DNA of 36,346 bases, from positions 1-36,346 of IMG/VR virus record IMGVR_UViG_2529292882_000022; one strand, written 5' to 3'. Both the position numbers and the translations under genes were made by a program. The notes beneath the pieces are model-generated. The model saw nothing but the letters and a program-made list of their open reading frames with translations. It searched no databases and was not told where the DNA came from. Source of the DNA: a virus. Its lineage: Duplodnaviria > Heunggongvirae > Uroviricota > Caudoviricetes. Below, one piece after another: positions 823 through 6,659 of the stretch; position 1 is the stretch's first letter; each line of letters begins with the position of its first letter.

Positions 823-1416
823 TTATTCTCCATGTACTCGTTCACTGCTAACCGTCATTTCTCTGATTGAGCGTAAATCCTCCAGCCCATCCAGCACGTC
901 CTTCATCTGTCGCTGACGCCGATAAATTTCATCGTTGCGGTTAACTTGCGCCCGTGCCATTGCTGTAGCCAGTTCTTCCAGTTCCGGCATTGACAGTTTC
1001 ACCTGTTGATTATCGGCATCACCCCACGCAAGGGTGTTTCGTGCCGTATTGGATTTCGCCGCCATTACTACCGGATAAAGACGGGCCATTGAGTCGGGGC
1101 CAGCGTTCCAGGTGCGACCGTTCCATTCGAACGTAAACGGCAGTGCTTCCTGTTCTGTGCGCCAGAGCTCGATTTCCATCTTTTTGGCATCTTTTGCCGC
1201 TGCGATAAGTTCGGGCGTGACGCTGAACGGGGCGATTTCACCCCATTTGCCGCTCTGTAACTCTTCCCAGATGCGCTGGCCTGTCATTGCGGTATCATCC
1301 TGCATGGCGGTATACGGGACGAATTCCGTTTCACCTTCAAATAACACCTCGCAGTCAACCGCGCCATTTTCAAGATAATGCGCGTTTCTGATGCCTTTTA
1401 CCGCTCTGATTTTCAT
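823..1416 (-). CDS. tail fibre assembly protein (chaperone) for the 1047-aa fibre, putative
   Basis: 197-aa ORF immediately downstream of the large tail-fibre gene, the usual position of a Tfa-type chaperone; call by synteny and size. Confidence 0.55.
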   Translation of the reverse strand: MKIRAVKGIRNAHYLENGAVDCEVLFEGETEFVPYTAMQDDTAMTGQRIWEELQSGKWGEIAPFSVTPELIAAAKDAKKMEIELWRTEQEALPFTFEWNGRTWNAGPDSMARLYPVVMAAKSNTARNTLAWGDADNQQVKLSMPELEELATAMARAQVNRNDEIYRRQRQMKDVLDGLEDLRSIREMTVSSERVHGE

Positions 1417-1429
1417 GTTTTATTCCCCG

Positions 1430-4400
1430 TTACTCGATGCGCACAAACAGGCAGATACGACCGCTTGTTCCGTAAGAGTCCCTGACCCCGGATAACGCCA
1501 TATAACGCCCCGGAAAAGTGTACCCTGTTGCTCCTGCACTTGGTGTTGAACCGTAAGAGCCAGGCCCGGCAGAAGATATTGTGCACGAAAGATTAACTCC
1601 GCCCAGTTGTGACCCCTGCACCACATCACCCAGGCCAATTTTGATTTCTTTATCCCCGGAAGTTGTTCCGCGATAAACAGCCAGCACCGGAACACCCACT
1701 GCCGGGTATTTGAAATATGAGCCTGAGCCCGCCATCCTGGACAACAGGTACGCCAGTGAATCTCCGTCGTAAACAACTACCCGCGATGACATGTTCCAGC
1801 TGTTATCGCTGTCGTTGTACCGGTACTGCATATAGTGAATACAGTGTTCACCCTGATAATACTGGTTGTAACACATCAGGGTTTTAAATTTGCGGACTGT
1901 GTCAGATTCACTGTTGGCGTACGGGGACCACATCACGTCAATAATGCCGTTAAATTGCGTGGTACCGGTAAGCAGTTGTGATGAATCTGTAATACTGACC
2001 GCATACCGCCCCGGCGTGACTTTCTTCAGCCATTCAACGAAATCAGACAGTCCCTCAAACGCCAGGGCTTCAGTGCTGGTAAATGCCTGACCAAATCCAT
2101 GCATGCCGGACAGTGCCAGCCTGCCCGGTGTGCGGTCGCGGATATCGCTCTGGGGTTCCATCGTCGCAGCCGCTTTCAGTTCAAGCTCCGTGCGCATGGC
2201 CTCAGGCGTGTCCAGTGCCAGTAATGCGCGGGCTTTTTCTGACAGCTGCGCCAGTAAAATCCGGCCCTCTGCACTGAAATAAGGCAGCGTGTTTTCTTCC
2301 GGTATTATCTGGCTGACAGCCGTTAACACGTCATTAAGCGGCTGTTTACCTGCCAGTGCATTAGTGACCGTTGTCGCAAAGTTCGGGTCATTACCCAGCG
2401 CCGCTGCCAGCTCGTTCAGCGTGTCCAGGGCTTCAGGTGATGAGTCAACCAGCGCAGCAAGCAGTTTGCGGACAAACTCCGCATTGGCTATTTCATTACC
2501 TGCTGCATCATCCGGCGGGGTTGGCGCGGACGGAGTTCCGGTCAGTGCCGGACTTTTCAGTGGCGCGCGGGCTTCAATCAGCGCAATAAGTGAAGCCTCA
2601 TCAACCTTCAGGTTTTCCCAGCCAACCAGATAACCACCATCTGATGACACCGCGCAACGGTTATAATAAATATGACCATTAACACCGTAATAAATAATTA
2701 TCTTATAGGCATACTCATCATTCGGGCTGGTTTTAGGTTGTGGCCAGATAATTTCAATAACACCGTTTGTCTGTATGCCAGGTACCACCACATTTGTGTC
2801 CGCAAATACGGTATAACGACCGGGTTTTGCTGTTTTTACCCACCTGAGAAAATCAGTCCCTGATTTAAATTCAGTTCTGTCGCTACTGGAAAATATTTTC
2901 CCGAAACCGAACATGCCAGGAATCGCCAGGCGGCCTTCGGTGCGGTCGTAAATATTCTCCTGCGCATCCTTTTGTGCTGCATTGCCCAGTTGTGGCGTCA
3001 GATTCGTCCAGGTGACCGGGGCGGAGATATTATCGCCACGAACGGTCATAAGAATCCGTCCGTCTTTTCCAAAGAACAGAACCAGCTTTGTTGCTGTCTG
3101 GCTGGTTTTGTCGCCCCAGCCATTATCCAGCCAGATAATTTCTGTTATCCCGGTGGTTTCTTCCGTTCGCGTGGAAAAGGTGTAATACCGTCCCGGGTGC
3201 AGGTTGTGAGCGGTTCTGGCTATATCCGCTATATTGCTGGCAATAACTGAACGTGCTCCGGCGTCCGTCATTCCGTAACCAAATGCACCAGGCAGCGCAA
3301 CGCGACCTTCCGTGCTGTCGTAAAGGTCTGTCTGTATGTCCCTTACCGCTGCGCTTTTCAGCTCAAGCTCATTACGCATGGCTTCCACTGTGGCCTGTGC
3401 CAGCAGTGACCGGGCTTTTTCTGACAGCGGAGACAGTGAAGCATTCCCGTCCTGATTAAAGCACAGAAGATTATCTGCCCGTTGCGTCAGTTCACTGATT
3501 GCCGTCAGCACGTCGTTCAGCGGTTGTTTACCTGCCAGCGCGTTCATGATTGTCGTCGCAAACTCCGGGTCATTGCCCAGCGCCGCTGCCAGCTCGTTCA
3601 GCGTGTCCAGGGCTTCCGGTGACGAGTCAACCAGTGCAGCGAGCAGTTTGCGGACAAATGCCGCGTTCGCTGTTTCCAGACCGGCAGCATCGTCCGGTGG
3701 GGTTGGTGTGGTGGGCGTGCCGGTGAATGCCGGGCTGTCCAGTGGCGCTTTTGTTTTCGTCTCGTCCATGACGGTTTTGACAGCCTTTGGTGTGGCTGCC
3801 AGTTCCTCGCTGTCGTTGTCCGTGTCACTACAGAGTTGCACCAGGCCTTTTTGCGTCGTGCTGGCGCTGGTTCCTTTCAGGTCATCGACTATCCGTTGCG
3901 CCTCGTCCCTGTGCTGTTTCGCGTTCTGTTCGCTTTTTGCTGCCGCTTCGGCGCTGGCTTTTGCCTCGCCGGTCAGCGTTGCGGCATCAGCAAGTTTATC
4001 GACCGCTTTCTGGACTATCGCGTCAGCATCCTTGACAGCCTGCTCTGCGCGGGCGGCATCCTGTGTGGCAGATGATGCCAGCTGTGCCACCTGCTTTTTA
4101 TCTTCGGCAACGGCTTCTGCATTCTGCTGTACGTTATCCGCCAGCGTCTCGCAGTCGCTCTTGATTTGTTGCGCATCAGCGACATGTTGCCCGGCCTGTC
4201 GTTCGCTTTCCGCTGCCGCTTCCGCGCTCTGCTGCGCCTGCGCCACCATTTCCTCAAAGCGTTTCACCACATCCGGCTTGAAATCACCTTCATCAAGGGC
4301 AGTCAGAAAGTCGTTCAGCGTGCCGGGCCTGGAGTCGTCGTATACAGCAATATCGCCAACACAGTACTCATCGCGCCAGTCCTGTCTCAGATAAACGCAA

Positions 4401-5145: not shown

Positions 5146-5147
5146 AA

Positions 5148-6659
5148 TTACAAACTCGCTACATTCCGCCAGACCCCATTAATCAGAACCTGCACCGGGC
5201 GGGCATTGGCCCAGTCCATACTTTCACCACCGTCAAGACCGCTGATAAGGTGACCTGATGGCGCATTTCCCCCGCGTCCAATACCAATGGCGCTTCCCAG
5301 ACGCACATCCTGCACACCGCCTGTTTTGGTCTGATAGCGGGCATCAAAGTTTCCGTAGTTTGATGGAACCATCTGCCCGTTTACAGCGAACGTTATACTG
5401 TTATCCGTATTCCTCTGACTGTAAAAATGCCAGCCGGAATCATCACCAAGCTCTGCAACTACAGGTCGGGATGAATTACCCCATAAATTAAACGTTGCGT
5501 TTTTCGTGGAGTTGTTGGCGCTGGATAACGTGAATTTTTTAGCATTTCCGGCCTGAATATTTTTTAACGCTATCGCCACACCATTCTGAAAACGGAATAC
5601 GTGCTGACCATTGGCATAAACATCCAGCAGGCCGTCACCATTCTGTTTCAGGCCGGTATCGTTATCCCCGAAAGCAATTGAGTTTCCGCCCAGCGCGTTC
5701 TGAACGCCGATACCCAGCGCACCATTGACCTGAGAACCGCCGCCAACAGACACTTTATGCGACATGGATATTTCACCCGTCCGCAGATTAATAGTGAACG
5801 GTCGAAGTGGACCAATATCGCCATTCTCGCCCTGACCTTCACTGGTAGGGATAAGGTGCAGGCACTCTTCCGAACGACGAAAAATCAGACCAAAGGCTTC
5901 GTTGAAAATCCTCAGCGCATTAACACCACGGATTTTCAGTTCCCCGGTCATCAAATCACCAGATTTTTTTACATATCGCAGATCAAAATCTGAATAGATA
6001 TTGCCAGGGTTTATCACGCTGAAATAGCTTTTCTCGCTATCAAGAAGACAAATTAAGGGAATGCCTTTAATGATATCGTTCGCTACCAGCTCGGACTGGT
6101 TCCCCTTATAAAGTGGGAACGAACCAAGAACCCTTCCGCCCAGTGTTAGTTGAAGCGTCGCAGCGTTGGTATTGTTCTGAACGGGGAAAACGATAATCGG
6201 GGTTCGTAGCGTCCAGTCCGAGCCTCCATTAACAAAAAACGTCGCGGGAAGTTCCAGCGTCAGTGCGTTTGCAGTACCACCAGCAACACCCGCAATATAA
6301 TGACCGCTCTGAAGCTGCGCTATCTGTACGAAATAGTTTTCCGATCCACGCGTGGCAAAGTTAGCCACAACGTCATTAAGGGACCAACCTTTCGCGGTTG
6401 TTCCTTCCTGCCCACGAATGACTCTCAACACATCACCGCTTACCGATACCAGGTGACAAATCTCAAATGCAGACTCTTTATTATCGGTAAGCGTAATTTT
6501 TGCATAGACGCGTTGCTCGTTCGATTTATTTTCAAAATCGGCAGAAAGCAATTTTGCAAATTTAGCCCCTGTACCGGGCATTACCGGAATATCGGTCTGG
6601 ATCGTGGTGATATCACCAGCCAGTGCTGAAACAACGTTATTGCCGAATCCAAGAATCAT
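5148..6659 (-). CDS. tail fibre protein (503 aa) with P2 gpH-like C-terminal domain
   Basis: C-terminal block NALGGNSIAFGDNDTGLKQNGDGLLDVYANGQHVFRFQNGVAIALKNIQAG...FNLWG.SSRPVVAELGDDSGWHFYSQRNTDNS..FAVNGQM.PSN.GNFD.RY matches my recollection of the conserved C-terminal region of P2 H / Mu S / P1 S fibres. Confidence 0.8.
   Translation of the reverse strand: MILGFGNNVVSALAGDITTIQTDIPVMPGTGAKFAKLLSADFENKSNEQRVYAKITLTDNKESAFEICHLVSVSGDVLRVIRGQEGTTAKGWSLNDVVANFATRGSENYFVQIAQLQSGHYIAGVAGGTANALTLELPATFFVNGGSDWTLRTPIIVFPVQNNTNAATLQLTLGGRVLGSFPLYKGNQSELVANDIIKGIPLICLLDSEKSYFSVINPGNIYSDFDLRYVKKSGDLMTGELKIRGVNALRIFNEAFGLIFRRSEECLHLIPTSEGQGENGDIGPLRPFTINLRTGEISMSHKVSVGGGSQVNGALGIGVQNALGGNSIAFGDNDTGLKQNGDGLLDVYANGQHVFRFQNGVAIALKNIQAGNAKKFTLSSANNSTKNATFNLWGNSSRPVVAELGDDSGWHFYSQRNTDNSITFAVNGQMVPSNYGNFDARYQTKTGGVQDVRLGSAIGIGRGGNAPSGHLISGLDGGESMDWANARPVQVLINGVWRNVASL

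What the first reader, a model, noticed from the sequence alone, without database searches (positions are those of the whole stretch)
823..6659. Two tandem tail-fibre/chaperone cassettes and a ~250-bp intragenic direct repeat
A 503-aa fibre plus Tfa is followed in the same orientation by a second, 1047-aa fibre plus its own Tfa. The large fibre carries a direct DNA repeat (about 2330-2580 and 3520-3760, visibly ~85% similar) encoding the conserved motif block twice, and a C-terminal region of three related ~90-aa modules. This suggests dual receptor specificity or host-range switching by recombination, arranged differently from the invertible fibre segment of Mu/P1.
Basis: seen in the sequence. 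Interest (0 to 1): 0.5.

Follow-up and report, generated by a model that had tools for sequence, protein, structure and literature searches.

The report
Two-fibre prophage tail with repeat-built side fibre
A prophage carries its normal baseplate fibre plus a portable lambda-type "side fibre" cassette whose gene contains a common shaft-building block twice; this is real but ordinary, because the layout and the repeat occur in known phages and many E. coli prophages.

Summary
Four intact, tightly packed minus-strand genes lie at 823-6659: a 503-aa fibre, a chaperone, a 1047-aa fibre and a second chaperone. The large gene holds a direct repeat, 2313-2566 / 3495-3748 at 83%, extending to 393 nt (E 2e-79).

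- **Cassette 1** is Mu S/U-like.
- **Cassette 2** is a lambda Stf-type fibre (PF08400 anchor) with a DUF4376 chaperone, not a Caudo_TAP Tfa.
- **Fibre layout:** anchor, coiled coil, R1, knob M1, knob M2, R2, knob M3, tip. The three modules are therefore not all C-terminal.

The same four-gene layout occurs in phiP27 (L54-L57), Rac-SA53 and many E. coli genomes. The Stf+DUF4376 cassette also ends the late operons of lambda-, P2-, Mu- and e14-like prophages, with the anchor changing between scaffold types.

R is a very widespread shaft unit, present at up to 13 copies per protein. Natural alleles carry 0, 1 or 2 R blocks. Single-R alleles are R1/R2 chimeras with different crossover points, so recombination at R does reshape these fibres.

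Nothing indicates a programmed switch. There is no invertase or inverted repeat, R1 and R2 are old (dS 0.79), and the whole gene is under purifying selection.

Verdict: new member of a known kind, low-to-moderate interest.

The parts
7266..8492 (-). Baseplate J/gp47-family protein, two genes upstream of the primary fibre
   Evidence: PF04865 E 1.5e-7. The orthologues in 52F4 and Rac-SA53 are annotated as 1227-nt genes.
6656..7282 (-). 208-aa protein in the position of P2 gpI / Mu gp48. No Pfam match.
   Evidence: phrog_8212 over its full length. Gene order seen.
5148..6659 (-). fib1, the primary baseplate fibre (503 aa). The N-terminal adaptor (aa 1-229) is specific to this tail type. The C-terminal part (aa 236-502, nt 5154-5954) is Mu S-like.
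   Evidence: PDB 5yvq_A (Mu tail fibre S) E 9.6e-12. aa 230-503 are 73% identical to phiP27 L54, while the N-terminus is unrelated to L54.
4597..5145 (-). tfa1, a Caudo_TAP tail-fibre assembly protein of the Mu U type
   Evidence: PF02413 E 1.5e-21. PDB 5yvq_B (Mu U) E 4.3e-32. 96% identical to phiP27 L55.
1430..4573 (-). fib2, an accessory lambda-Stf-type side fibre (1047 aa)
   Evidence: PF08400 E 1.7e-60 and PF03406 E 1.3e-15. More than 7900 homologues, the best 120 being 80-99% identical. dN/dS 0.1-0.4 in every segment.
4172..4573 (-). fib2 anchor domain (aa 1-134), StfN-type
   Evidence: PDB 9e7m, lambda Stf N-terminal domain, E 8e-17. PDB 7kjk, XM1 gp40 collar spike, E 1.1e-10. Five anchor variants occur among homologues and largely track the tail type.
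3863..4171 (-). fib2 Ala/Gln/Glu-rich coiled-coil stalk (aa 135-237)
   Evidence: Aligns with the coiled-coil part of XM1 gp40 (PMC10457771). Duplicated (+105 aa) in the 759-aa alleles.
3758..3862 (-). Phage_fiber_2 repeat (aa 238-272; the Pfam match runs to aa 277)
   Evidence: PF03406. Matches Mu S residues 99-155.
3356..3757 (-). R1, first copy of the shaft unit (aa 273-406). The DNA repeat core is 3495-3748.
   Evidence: 94-96% conserved among two-R homologues.
2993..3355 (-). M1, knob module 1 (aa 407-527)
   Evidence: 34% identical to M2 and 27% to M3. Highly conserved among homologues.
2576..2992 (-). M2, knob module 2 (aa 528-666). Its distal half is a variability hot spot.
2174..2575 (-). 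R2, second copy of the shaft unit (aa 667-800). The DNA repeat core is 2313-2566.
1799..2173 (-). M3, knob module 3 (aa 801-925)
1433..1798 (-). Distal tip (aa 926-1047), beta-rich and variable; the presumed receptor-binding end
   Evidence: Variability. Model pLDDT about 70, fold not identified. 100% identical to the tip of a Mu-like prophage fibre.
823..1416 (-). tfa2, a DUF4376 protein and presumed chaperone or cap of fib2
   Evidence: PF14301 E 3.9e-14. phrog_1141. DUF4376 proteins V22 gp27 and A5 gp9 are experimentally studied tail-fibre chaperones (PMC7289586, PMC10579305). It follows the fibre gene in every context examined.
757..777 (.). GC-rich hairpin between the convergent ORF 1-750 and tfa2. 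Likely the end of the late operon.
   Evidence: Read from the sequence. Only 2 sigma-70-like sites occur in 600-8700 against 10 expected, and none lies between the four genes.

Best explanation
The region is the distal end of the late (tail) operon of a Rac-SA53-type temperate myovirus prophage. In close relatives this prophage sits at the uspF/ompN (Rac) site. It encodes two independent host-recognition devices that are made together rather than alternately.

(1) **Primary baseplate fibre.** fib1 plus tfa1 is a Mu S/U-type pair. Its N-terminal adaptor fits this baseplate. Its Mu-S-like C-terminus needs the U-type chaperone.

(2) **Portable accessory side-fibre cassette.** fib2 plus tfa2 consists of a lambda-Stf-type N-terminal ring-forming anchor, a coiled-coil stalk, a shaft made of two R units each followed by knob domains (R1-M1-M2-R2-M3), a variable tip, and a DUF4376 chaperone.

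The roughly 250-390-bp intragenic direct repeat is simply the coding sequence of that widespread shaft unit, present twice. Because the unit is conserved at DNA level, it acts as a homologous-recombination joint. Over evolutionary time this creates alleles with 0, 1 or 2 units and swaps knobs, tips and anchors between unrelated phages. It is not a programmed switch.

**Shown here:** gene content, homologies, the repeat, the polymorphism and chimeric single-R alleles, portability of the cassette, and purifying selection.

**Inferred:** co-display of both fibres on the virion, two receptor specificities, chaperone function of tfa2, and the attachment site of fib2. That site could be the neck, as for XM1 gp40, or around the tube/baseplate junction, as for lambda Stf.
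For: - **Homologies:**
- **Known four-gene layout:** seen in phiP27, Rac-SA53, and E. coli 52F4, SC418, C311 and others.
- **Portability:** Stf+DUF4376 follows J-lom in a lambda-like prophage. It follows S/U-like genes and precedes com/mom in a Mu-like prophage. It follows gpD in P2-like prophages. It follows the fibre and Caudo_TAP genes in an e14-type prophage.
- **Recent exchange of the fibre body:** M2-R2-M3-tip is 96-100% identical between the window and the Mu-like prophage, although the anchors are only 40% identical.
- **R is generic:** 17,327 representative clusters match it. 128 of the best 150 have at least 2 matched stretches, and up to 13. P0123 is a 10-copy tandem array.
- **Polymorphism and chimeras:**
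- **Selection and age:** dN/dS 0.1-0.4 in all segments; R1 vs R2 dS 0.79.
- **Single operon:** no internal promoter-like sites between the four genes.
- **Literature:** Ur-lambda StfN forms a collar at the gpV/gpM junction (PMC12617516). XM1 gp40 binds the neck (PMC10457771). Phage Rad52-like recombinases recombine diverged stf genes (PMC3945230). Gifsy-1 uses J and Stf for different receptors (PMC12312913).
Against: - No virion or adsorption data exist for this phage group in anything I could read, so co-display and receptor identities are inferred.
- The fib2 anchor is 93-96% identical in Rac-SA53-type and phiP27-type prophages. Their head, neck, sheath, tube and baseplate proteins show no detectable sequence similarity. 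That sits awkwardly with specific docking and is unexplained.
- The head-to-tube proteins submitted have no sequence match in the PDB, so the docking partner cannot be named. The baseplate proteins were not included in that query.
- The tip fold was not identified.
- The chimeric pattern of single-R alleles does not by itself tell deletion in cis from exchange between alleles in trans.
Confidence: 0.75

Rival explanations
1. Recombinational host-range switch. During lytic growth the two R copies recombine often enough that lysates contain both 1047-aa and about 653-aa fibres, giving the population two adsorption phenotypes.
For: - The deletion is in frame (1182 nt).
- There is a 41-nt identical run inside an 83%-identical core.
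- Natural 654-aa alleles with the same flanks exist, and their R block is 5' R1-like and 3' R2-like.
- Rad52-like phage recombinases tolerate 12% divergence with only a 100-fold loss (PMC3945230).
Against: - A deletion cannot revert, so it is not a switch.
- No site-specific recombinase or inverted repeats were found.
- R1 and R2 keep separate identities across five scaffolds, with dS 0.79. Exchange between them is therefore rare.
- The best one-R allele (SC418) is only 73-77% identical in its C-terminal part, so it is not a recent derivative.
- Both forms are under purifying selection.
Confidence: 0.12
2. The second cassette is a passenger. It would have been acquired by recombination from a phiP27-like or other prophage, be expressed, but not be assembled onto this particular tail.
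For: - The same anchor (93-96% identical) occurs on two scaffolds with no detectable similarity.
- The cassette always sits at the very end of the prophage, where cargo accumulates.
Against: - The ORFs are intact, with dN/dS 0.12-0.16 in the anchor itself between Rac-SA53-type relatives.
- Elsewhere the anchor variants track tail type: lambda-like 57%, Mu-like 41%, P2-like 80-81%, e14-like 73-74%. That argues for functional docking.
- The cassette is retained in 43 of 5,426 complete E. coli genomes in the two-R form alone.
Confidence: 0.08
3. Branched fibre. fib2 would dock not on the tail but on the co-transferred fib1 C-terminal region or on Tfa1, which in Mu stays bound to the fibre tip. 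This would be like the branched receptor-binding complexes of DT57C, G7C or CBA120.
For: The only proteins shared between the phiP27-type and Rac-SA53-type prophages are the fib1 C-terminus, tfa1, fib2 and tfa2. That could explain one anchor working on two scaffolds.
Against: - The anchor stays 93% identical in Rac-SA53, where tfa1 is only 45% and the fib1 C-terminus 73% identical.
- In lambda-like and P2-like prophages the cassette is not next to any S/U-type pair.
- Solved homologues of the anchor bind tube or neck rings (PMC12617516, PMC10457771).
Confidence: 0.05

Closest known systems
phiP27 L54-L57 and Rac-SA53 tail1-tail4 fibre clusters
   Same: Identical gene order at the prophage end: fibre, Caudo_TAP, PF08400 fibre, DUF4376. 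tfa1 is 96% identical to L55. The fib2 anchor is 96% identical to L56. Rac-SA53 tail3 is a two-R fibre of 1061 aa, 76% identical overall.
   Different: phiP27 L56 is 490 aa with no R block and one knob. Rac-SA53 tail3 has a different M3 and tip (32-45% identity). The phiP27 virion scaffold is unrelated in sequence to the one here.
Lambda side tail fibre Stf + Tfa (Ur-lambda); Gifsy-1 Stf
   Same: Homologous N-terminal anchor (9e7m, E 8e-17). An accessory fibre made in addition to the main adhesin, with its chaperone gene immediately downstream. Close two-R relatives sit after J-lom in lambda-like prophages. Gifsy-1 shows that J and Stf can serve different receptors (PMC12312913).
Vibrio myophage XM1 gp40 collar spike
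   Same: fib2 aa 1-197 align to gp40 aa 1-188 (E 1.1e-10). Both have an Ig-like N-terminal domain followed by a roughly 100-aa coiled coil, and both belong to a contractile-tailed phage (PMC10457771).
   Different: gp40 ends in a tailspike-like domain and is shown to bind the neck. For fib2 the attachment site is unknown, and the head-to-tube proteins of this prophage have no PDB sequence match.
Mu S/U-S'/U' and P1/e14 invertible fibre segments
   Same: Cassette 1 is homologous to Mu S (C-terminal part) and U. Both systems give a phage two fibre specificities.
   Different: There are no inverted repeats, no Gin/Cin/Pin recombinase and no opposed alternative exons. The second specificity comes from a separate, co-expressed fibre gene. 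A Mu-like prophage carries this cassette between its U-like gene and com/mom.
Tail-fibre mosaicism via conserved motifs. From my own knowledge, not read here: P2 H / Mu S / T4 gp37, Haggard-Ljungquist 1992 and Sandmeier 1994; T4 gp37 His-box duplications, Tetart 1996.
   Same: Conserved in-gene blocks serve as recombination joints. Duplication or deletion of fibre segments changes the fibre. Relaxed Rad52-type recombination of stf genes was measured in PMC3945230.
   Different: The unit here is the 'KAPLxSPxxTGxPT...LDTLNELAAALGNDPNFA' shaft repeat, interleaved with knob domains. The effect of copy number on host range is untested.
DUF4376 tail-fibre chaperones (Alteromonas phages V22 gp27, A5 gp9)
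   Same: C-terminal DUF4376 domain, a similar size of about 190-240 aa, and a gene directly downstream of its fibre.
   Different: No detectable similarity outside the domain, and a different fibre family. V22 needs the chaperone while A5 does not, so the role here (folding or capping) is open.

Membership tests
Lambda Stf-type side tail fibre (PF08400 family) | N-terminal StfN/'prophage tail fibre N-terminal' domain | tested here: met
   PF08400 E 1.7e-60, full length 1-134. 9e7m E 8e-17.
Lambda Stf-type side tail fibre (PF08400 family) | Dedicated chaperone gene immediately downstream | tested here: met
   tfa2 starts 13 nt after fib2. It belongs to the DUF4376 family, not Caudo_TAP as in lambda.
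Lambda Stf-type side tail fibre (PF08400 family) | Carried by a lambda-like siphovirus tail (after J and lom) | tested here: not met
   Here it follows baseplate J, a gp48-position protein and an S/U-type pair. Close two-R relatives do sit after J-lom.
Lambda Stf-type side tail fibre (PF08400 family) | T4 gp37-like distal domain binding OmpC | tested here: not met
Mu S/U (P2 H/G) fibre-chaperone pair | Fibre C-terminus homologous to Mu S and chaperone homologous to Mu U | tested here: met
   5yvq_A E 9.6e-12; 5yvq_B E 4.3e-32. PF02413.
Mu S/U (P2 H/G) fibre-chaperone pair | Position directly after baseplate J and gp48/I genes | tested here: met
   Order J (PF04865), 208-aa protein, fib1, tfa1. 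The 208-aa protein has no Pfam match, so its equivalence to gp48/I rests on position only.
Invertible fibre segments (Mu G, P1 C, e14 P) | Inverted repeats flanking alternative fibre ends, plus a Gin/Cin/Pin serine recombinase | tested here: not met
   The best inverted repeats in 1-8000 are 20-26 nt at 73-85%, at chance level. No resolvase or invertase family appeared in any window ORF scanned.
DUF4376 tail-fibre chaperones | C-terminal DUF4376 domain above the Pfam threshold | tested here: met
   53.4 bits against a cutoff of 25, aa 73-177.
DUF4376 tail-fibre chaperones | Required for, or bound to, the mature fibre | not testable with these tools
   Known only for V22 gp27 and A5 gp9 (PMC7289586, PMC10579305).
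phiP27-type four-gene fibre cluster | Order fibre, Caudo_TAP, PF08400 fibre, DUF4376 at the prophage end next to att | tested here: met
   In relatives uspF/ompN lie just beyond.
Diversity-generating retroelement targeting a fibre | Reverse transcriptase plus template/variable repeat pair with A-specific mismatches | tested here: not met
   No RT family appeared among the ORFs scanned. I did not tabulate R1/R2 mismatches by base. Both copies are translated in frame as parts of one protein that is under purifying selection. The Mu part of the window beyond A/B was not scanned exhaustively.

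The most novel reading that the evidence does not exclude
Two linked possibilities remain open.

(a) **Scaffold-agnostic anchor.** The accessory fibre's StfN anchor may fit many scaffolds. The same 93-96%-identical domain equips two myovirus lineages with no detectable sequence similarity in any virion protein. This would imply docking on a structurally conserved ring (neck or terminator, as in XM1) rather than on the baseplate. These common E. coli prophages would then be 'whiskered' myoviruses with neck-borne receptor-binding fibres.

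(b) **Measurable length polymorphism.** The two R units, together with a mid-fibre knob (M2) that is as variable as the tip, may make a fibre with two binding regions. Phage Rad52-type recombinases could then change its length and valency in frame at measurable frequency within a lysate.
Probability: 0.15. Interest if true: 0.55.

Novelty: new member of a known kind. Interest (0 to 1): 0.3.

Why it matters
Accessory Stf-type fibres are being used to retarget lambda-derived delivery particles (PMC11338833). A natural catalogue would give ready-made design rules for chimeric fibres. It shows which joints (the R unit and the start of each knob) and which anchors work on lambda-, P2-, Mu-, e14-, phiP27- and Rac-SA53-type tails.

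For prophage biology, many temperate E. coli myoviruses probably carry two adhesin systems at once. This matters for predicting host range and the spread of Stx- or LT-II-converting phages.

As a discovery in itself it is modest. The layout is in GenBank phages, and the repeat is a generic fibre unit.

Tried and rejected
- **PDB sequence search of head-to-tube proteins.** The portal, scaffold/protease, capsid, neck, sheath and tube proteins were searched as one concatenated query to find the docking partner of fib2. There were no hits. The tape-measure chaperone, hub and baseplate proteins prepared were not included in the submitted query.
- **NCBIfam on the four proteins and neighbours.** Nothing useful.
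- **Comparison with K-12 Rac StfR/TfaR at the same chromosomal site.** Only the anchor (41%) and the PF03406 region match, so StfR is not the same fibre.
- **Literature searches for phiP27 or Rac-SA53 fibre function.** No experimental data found.
- **DGR and inversion systems.** Considered and rejected: no RT, no invertase, no inverted repeats.
- **Pseudogenised remnant.** Considered and rejected: ORFs are intact and dN/dS is 0.1-0.4. One relative, RM9088, does have a frameshifted copy.
- **Exact count of one-R versus two-R alleles over all genomes.** Not possible, because the tables list at most 60 rows. I report only that 43 of 5,426 genomes hold the M1-M2 segment, and that 20 of the 30 best junction hits are one-R type, with clonal strains included.

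Full report
**1. The observation**

All relevant genes are on the minus strand. In order they are:

| Gene | Coordinates | Product |
|---|---|---|
| baseplate J | 7266-8492 | PF04865 family |
| 208-aa protein | 6656-7282 | position of P2 gpI / Mu gp48 |
| fib1 | 5148-6659 | 503 aa |
| tfa1 | 4597-5145 | 182 aa |
| fib2 | 1430-4573 | 1047 aa |
| tfa2 | 823-1416 | 197 aa |

The gaps between the last four genes are 2, 23 and 13 nt. A consensus scan finds only two sigma-70-like sites in 600-8700, where shuffles give ten, and none lies between the genes. A GC-rich hairpin at 757-777 separates tfa2 from a convergent ORF. The four genes therefore look like the tail end of one late operon.

The direct repeat is real. 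Positions 2313-2566 and 3495-3748 are 83% identical over 254 nt. The match extends to 393 nt at 76% (E 2e-79). The longest identical run is 41 nt. The spacing of 1182 nt equals 394 codons.

**2. Anatomy of the large fibre**

Cutting the protein and comparing the pieces shows that aa 273-496 match aa 667-895 at 53% identity (E 1e-76). It also shows three mutually related modules. Combined with Pfam, the layout is:

| Segment | Residues |
|---|---|
| Anchor (PF08400) | 1-134 |
| Ala/Gln-rich coiled coil | 135-237 |
| Phage_fiber_2 repeat | 238-272 |
| R1 | 273-406 |
| M1 | 407-527 |
| M2 | 528-666 |
| R2 | 667-800 |
| M3 | 801-925 |
| Tip | 926-1047 |

Two modules lie between the repeats.

An AlphaFold model of M2 was built from an alignment of the three paralogous modules taken from many homologues. 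It is confident in its globular part, with pLDDT 87-92. It is poor in the first 37 residues, which hold the conserved DxTxGRxAxPGxFGxG motif and probably fold only in the trimer.

**3. What the two cassettes are**

*Cassette 1.* The fib1 C-terminal part (aa 236-502) matches Mu fibre S (5yvq_A, E 9.6e-12). tfa1 matches Mu U (5yvq_B, E 4.3e-32; PF02413). It sits where S/U or H/G sit, directly after the baseplate genes.

*Cassette 2.* The fib2 N-terminus is the lambda Stf anchor (9e7m, E 8e-17). Together with the coiled coil it also aligns to the collar spike gp40 of Vibrio myophage XM1 (7kjk, E 1.1e-10). In Ur-lambda, twelve StfN domains form a collar at the gpV/gpM junction and carry four trimeric fibres (PMC12617516). 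In XM1, six gp40 trimers bind the neck through the head-completion and terminator proteins (PMC10457771).

tfa2 is not a Caudo_TAP protein. It is a DUF4376 protein (PF14301, 53 bits). That family includes the experimentally studied tail-fibre chaperones, or 'caps', V22 gp27 and A5 gp9 (PMC7289586, PMC10579305).

**4. Relatives**

The four-gene layout is that of phiP27 (L54-L57) and Rac-SA53 (tail1-4). It is found next to uspF/ompN in several E. coli genomes, the site of Rac in K-12.

fib2 has more than 7,900 homologues. The best 120 are full-length two-R proteins of 1034-1087 aa, apart from five truncated or partial entries of 916-1010 aa. They are 79-99% identical, named sources being E. coli, E. 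marmotae and Salmonella.

The Stf+DUF4376 cassette is portable. In each context below it lies at the far end of the prophage.

| Prophage type | Position of the cassette |
|---|---|
| lambda-like | after J and lom |
| true Mu-like | after S-like and U-like genes, before com/mom (where Mu has the G segment) |
| P2-like | after gpD |
| e14-type | after the fibre and Caudo_TAP genes |

The anchor comes in at least five variants that largely track the tail type:

| Tail type | Anchor identity to the window |
|---|---|
| lambda-like | 57% |
| Mu-like | 41% |
| P2-like | 80-81% |
| e14-like | 73-74% |
| Rac-SA53-type and phiP27-type | 93-100% |

The fibre body can be nearly identical across scaffolds. 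The Mu-like prophage's M2-R2-M3-tip is 96-100% identical to the window's.

One thing is unexplained. The Rac-SA53-type and phiP27-type prophages share the same anchor, although tblastn finds no similarity between any of their head, neck, sheath, tube or baseplate proteins.

**5. The repeat as a building block and recombination joint**

A full-library search with R1 finds 17,327 representative clusters. Of the best 150, 128 have two or more matched stretches and some have up to 13. P0123 is a tandem array of ten units of about 77 aa, of the form KAPLxSPxLTGxPTAPT...LxTLxELAAALGxDPNFA. Two copies in one fibre is therefore ordinary.

Natural alleles of this fibre differ in unit number:

| Allele | Length | Architecture |
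|---|---|---|
| phiP27 L56 | 490 aa | no R, one knob |
| SC418, NRZ103545 | 654 aa | one R |
| TUM9757 | 659 aa | one R |
| C311, 08-00022 | 759 aa | one R plus a duplicated stretch of coiled coil |
| SC407 | 854 aa | M-R-M-tip |
| the window and its close relatives | 1037-1087 aa | two R |

A synthetic 'deletion junction' query finds the one-R alleles directly. One of them, SC418, has the same flanks as the window, including the 'zyg1' ORF at 99.6% identity.

I painted the single R blocks at 19 diagnostic sites within the homologous 393-nt core. Those that follow the PF03406 repeat are R1-like at the 5' end and R2-like at the 3' end. Their switch points differ between alleles. The SC407 block, which follows a knob, is R2-like throughout. 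This shows repeated crossing-over inside R. It cannot distinguish deletion in cis from exchange between alleles in trans.

Several results argue against frequent exchange:
- R1 copies from five scaffolds group together, and so do R2 copies. Identity is 92-95% among R1, 86-91% among R2, and 78-81% between them.
- R1 versus R2 has dS 0.79, against about 0.2 between orthologues.
- SC418's C-terminal part is only 73-77% identical to the window's.

The M1-M2 segment that marks two-R forms occurs in 43 of 5,426 complete E. coli genomes. Among the 30 best junction hits, one-R forms are at least as common as two-R forms.

Mechanistically, phage Rad52-like recombinases recombine 12%-diverged DNA only 100-fold less well than identical DNA, and stf genes are documented exchange sites (PMC3945230). 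Rare in-frame R1xR2 deletions during lytic growth are therefore plausible, but this is an inference.

**6. Selection and variability**

dN/dS is 0.1-0.4 in every segment of fib2 against four relatives, so the gene is not a remnant. Among 118 full-length homologues the variable stretches are the anchor (aa 26-75), the distal half of M2 (aa 551-650), the end of R2 (aa 751-800) and the tip (aa 901-1047). R1 and M1 are nearly invariant. A mid-fibre knob as variable as the tip hints at a second ligand-contacting region. That is a hint only.

**7. Most likely function**

- **Shown:** two intact fibre-chaperone units of different families in one operon.
- **Inferred:** both are assembled on the virion. 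fib1 would sit on the baseplate. fib2 would attach through its ring-forming anchor either at the neck (XM1 precedent) or at the tube/baseplate junction (lambda precedent). This would give two receptor specificities at once, as J and Stf do for Gifsy-1 (PMC12312913).

The repeat is structural. It is a shaft unit that sets length and carries knobs. Secondarily it is a recombination joint that generates fibre diversity over evolutionary time. I put 0.75 on this overall picture. The rivals are a recombinational population switch (0.12), a passenger cassette (0.08) and a branched fibre docking on fib1/Tfa1 (0.05).

**8. Comparison and novelty**

This region is a member of the phiP27/Rac-SA53 four-gene fibre cluster. 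Its second fibre is a member of the PF08400 Stf family by its anchor, but not by tail type, chaperone family or distal domain. It is not an invertible-segment system: no inverted repeats and no recombinase were found.

The tandem layout, the conserved in-gene joints and multi-copy shaft units are all known kinds of thing. What I did not find described is:
- the 0/1/2-R polymorphism with chimeric single-R alleles;
- the breadth of scaffolds that carry the Stf+DUF4376 cassette;
- the shared anchor on two unrelated myovirus scaffolds.

Novelty: new member of a known kind. Interest: 0.3.

Noticed in passing
window 30223-36346: The exact 30-nt left end of phage Mu (TGTATTGATTCACTTGAAGTACGAAAAAAA) lies at 30223-30252. 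It is followed by the Mu c repressor (30562-31080, minus strand), transposase A (31493-33499) and B (33538-34476). The stretch is 97.4% identical to Mu from its position 1. A Mu prophage has apparently transposed into the Rac-SA53-like prophage. Its own invertible S/U fibre region lies outside the window.
   Followed up: partly
window 4172-4573 compared with L003/L008 (phiP27) and L005 (C311): The fib2 anchor domain is 93-96% identical in Rac-SA53-type and phiP27-type prophages. Their head, neck, sheath, tube and baseplate proteins show no detectable similarity by tblastn. How one anchor could dock on both tails is unexplained.
   Followed up: partly
L011 6474-12670 (GCA_018174175.1 contig DADZXR010000011.1): A Mu-like prophage (Mu gp43-48 homologues, com and mom) has a tandem S-like fibre, U-like chaperone, two-R Stf-type fibre and DUF4376 where Mu carries the invertible G segment. 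No gin is visible. Its fibre tip is 100% identical to the window's.
   Followed up: partly
window 1-750 (+): A 249-aa ORF with no Pfam, PHROG or NCBIfam match, named 'Zygote formation protein zyg1' by PGAP in relatives. It is present between uspF and the DUF4376 gene in SC418 (99.6% identical) and NRZ103545, but absent from 52F4 and Rac-SA53. It is probably prophage-end cargo, convergent with tfa2.
   Followed up: no
window 8514-9569 (+): Two plus-strand genes interrupt the minus-strand tail operon just upstream of baseplate J. One is a 182-aa protein with a signal-peptide-like N-terminus. The other is an AntA/AntB antirepressor-domain protein (PF08346). The same insertion is annotated in 52F4 and Rac-SA53.
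   Followed up: no
window 27441-29157 (-): A TET-associated glycosyltransferase (PF20691, E 1.3e-35) and a ParB-N-domain protein lie just upstream of the small terminase gene. This suggests a DNA hypermodification module in this prophage.
   Followed up: no
PP818812.1 (hit H2): 'Actinobacillus phage vB_Apl-pPE4' matches 70% of window 800-8600 at 91% identity, and every other close match is Escherichia. The host label looks doubtful, or the phage may derive from an E. coli prophage.
   Followed up: no
NZ_CM147848.1 (E. coli 52F4) 1263642-1266458: Strain 52F4 carries two prophages with two-R fibres. The one not at uspF has a tip region 99.7% identical to the window's. The one at uspF is the better match overall (92%). 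This illustrates exchange of fibre ends between co-resident prophages.
   Followed up: no
L006 4006-6284 (E. coli RM9088): The one-R allele in this strain is annotated as frameshifted, so some copies of the accessory fibre are decaying.
   Followed up: no
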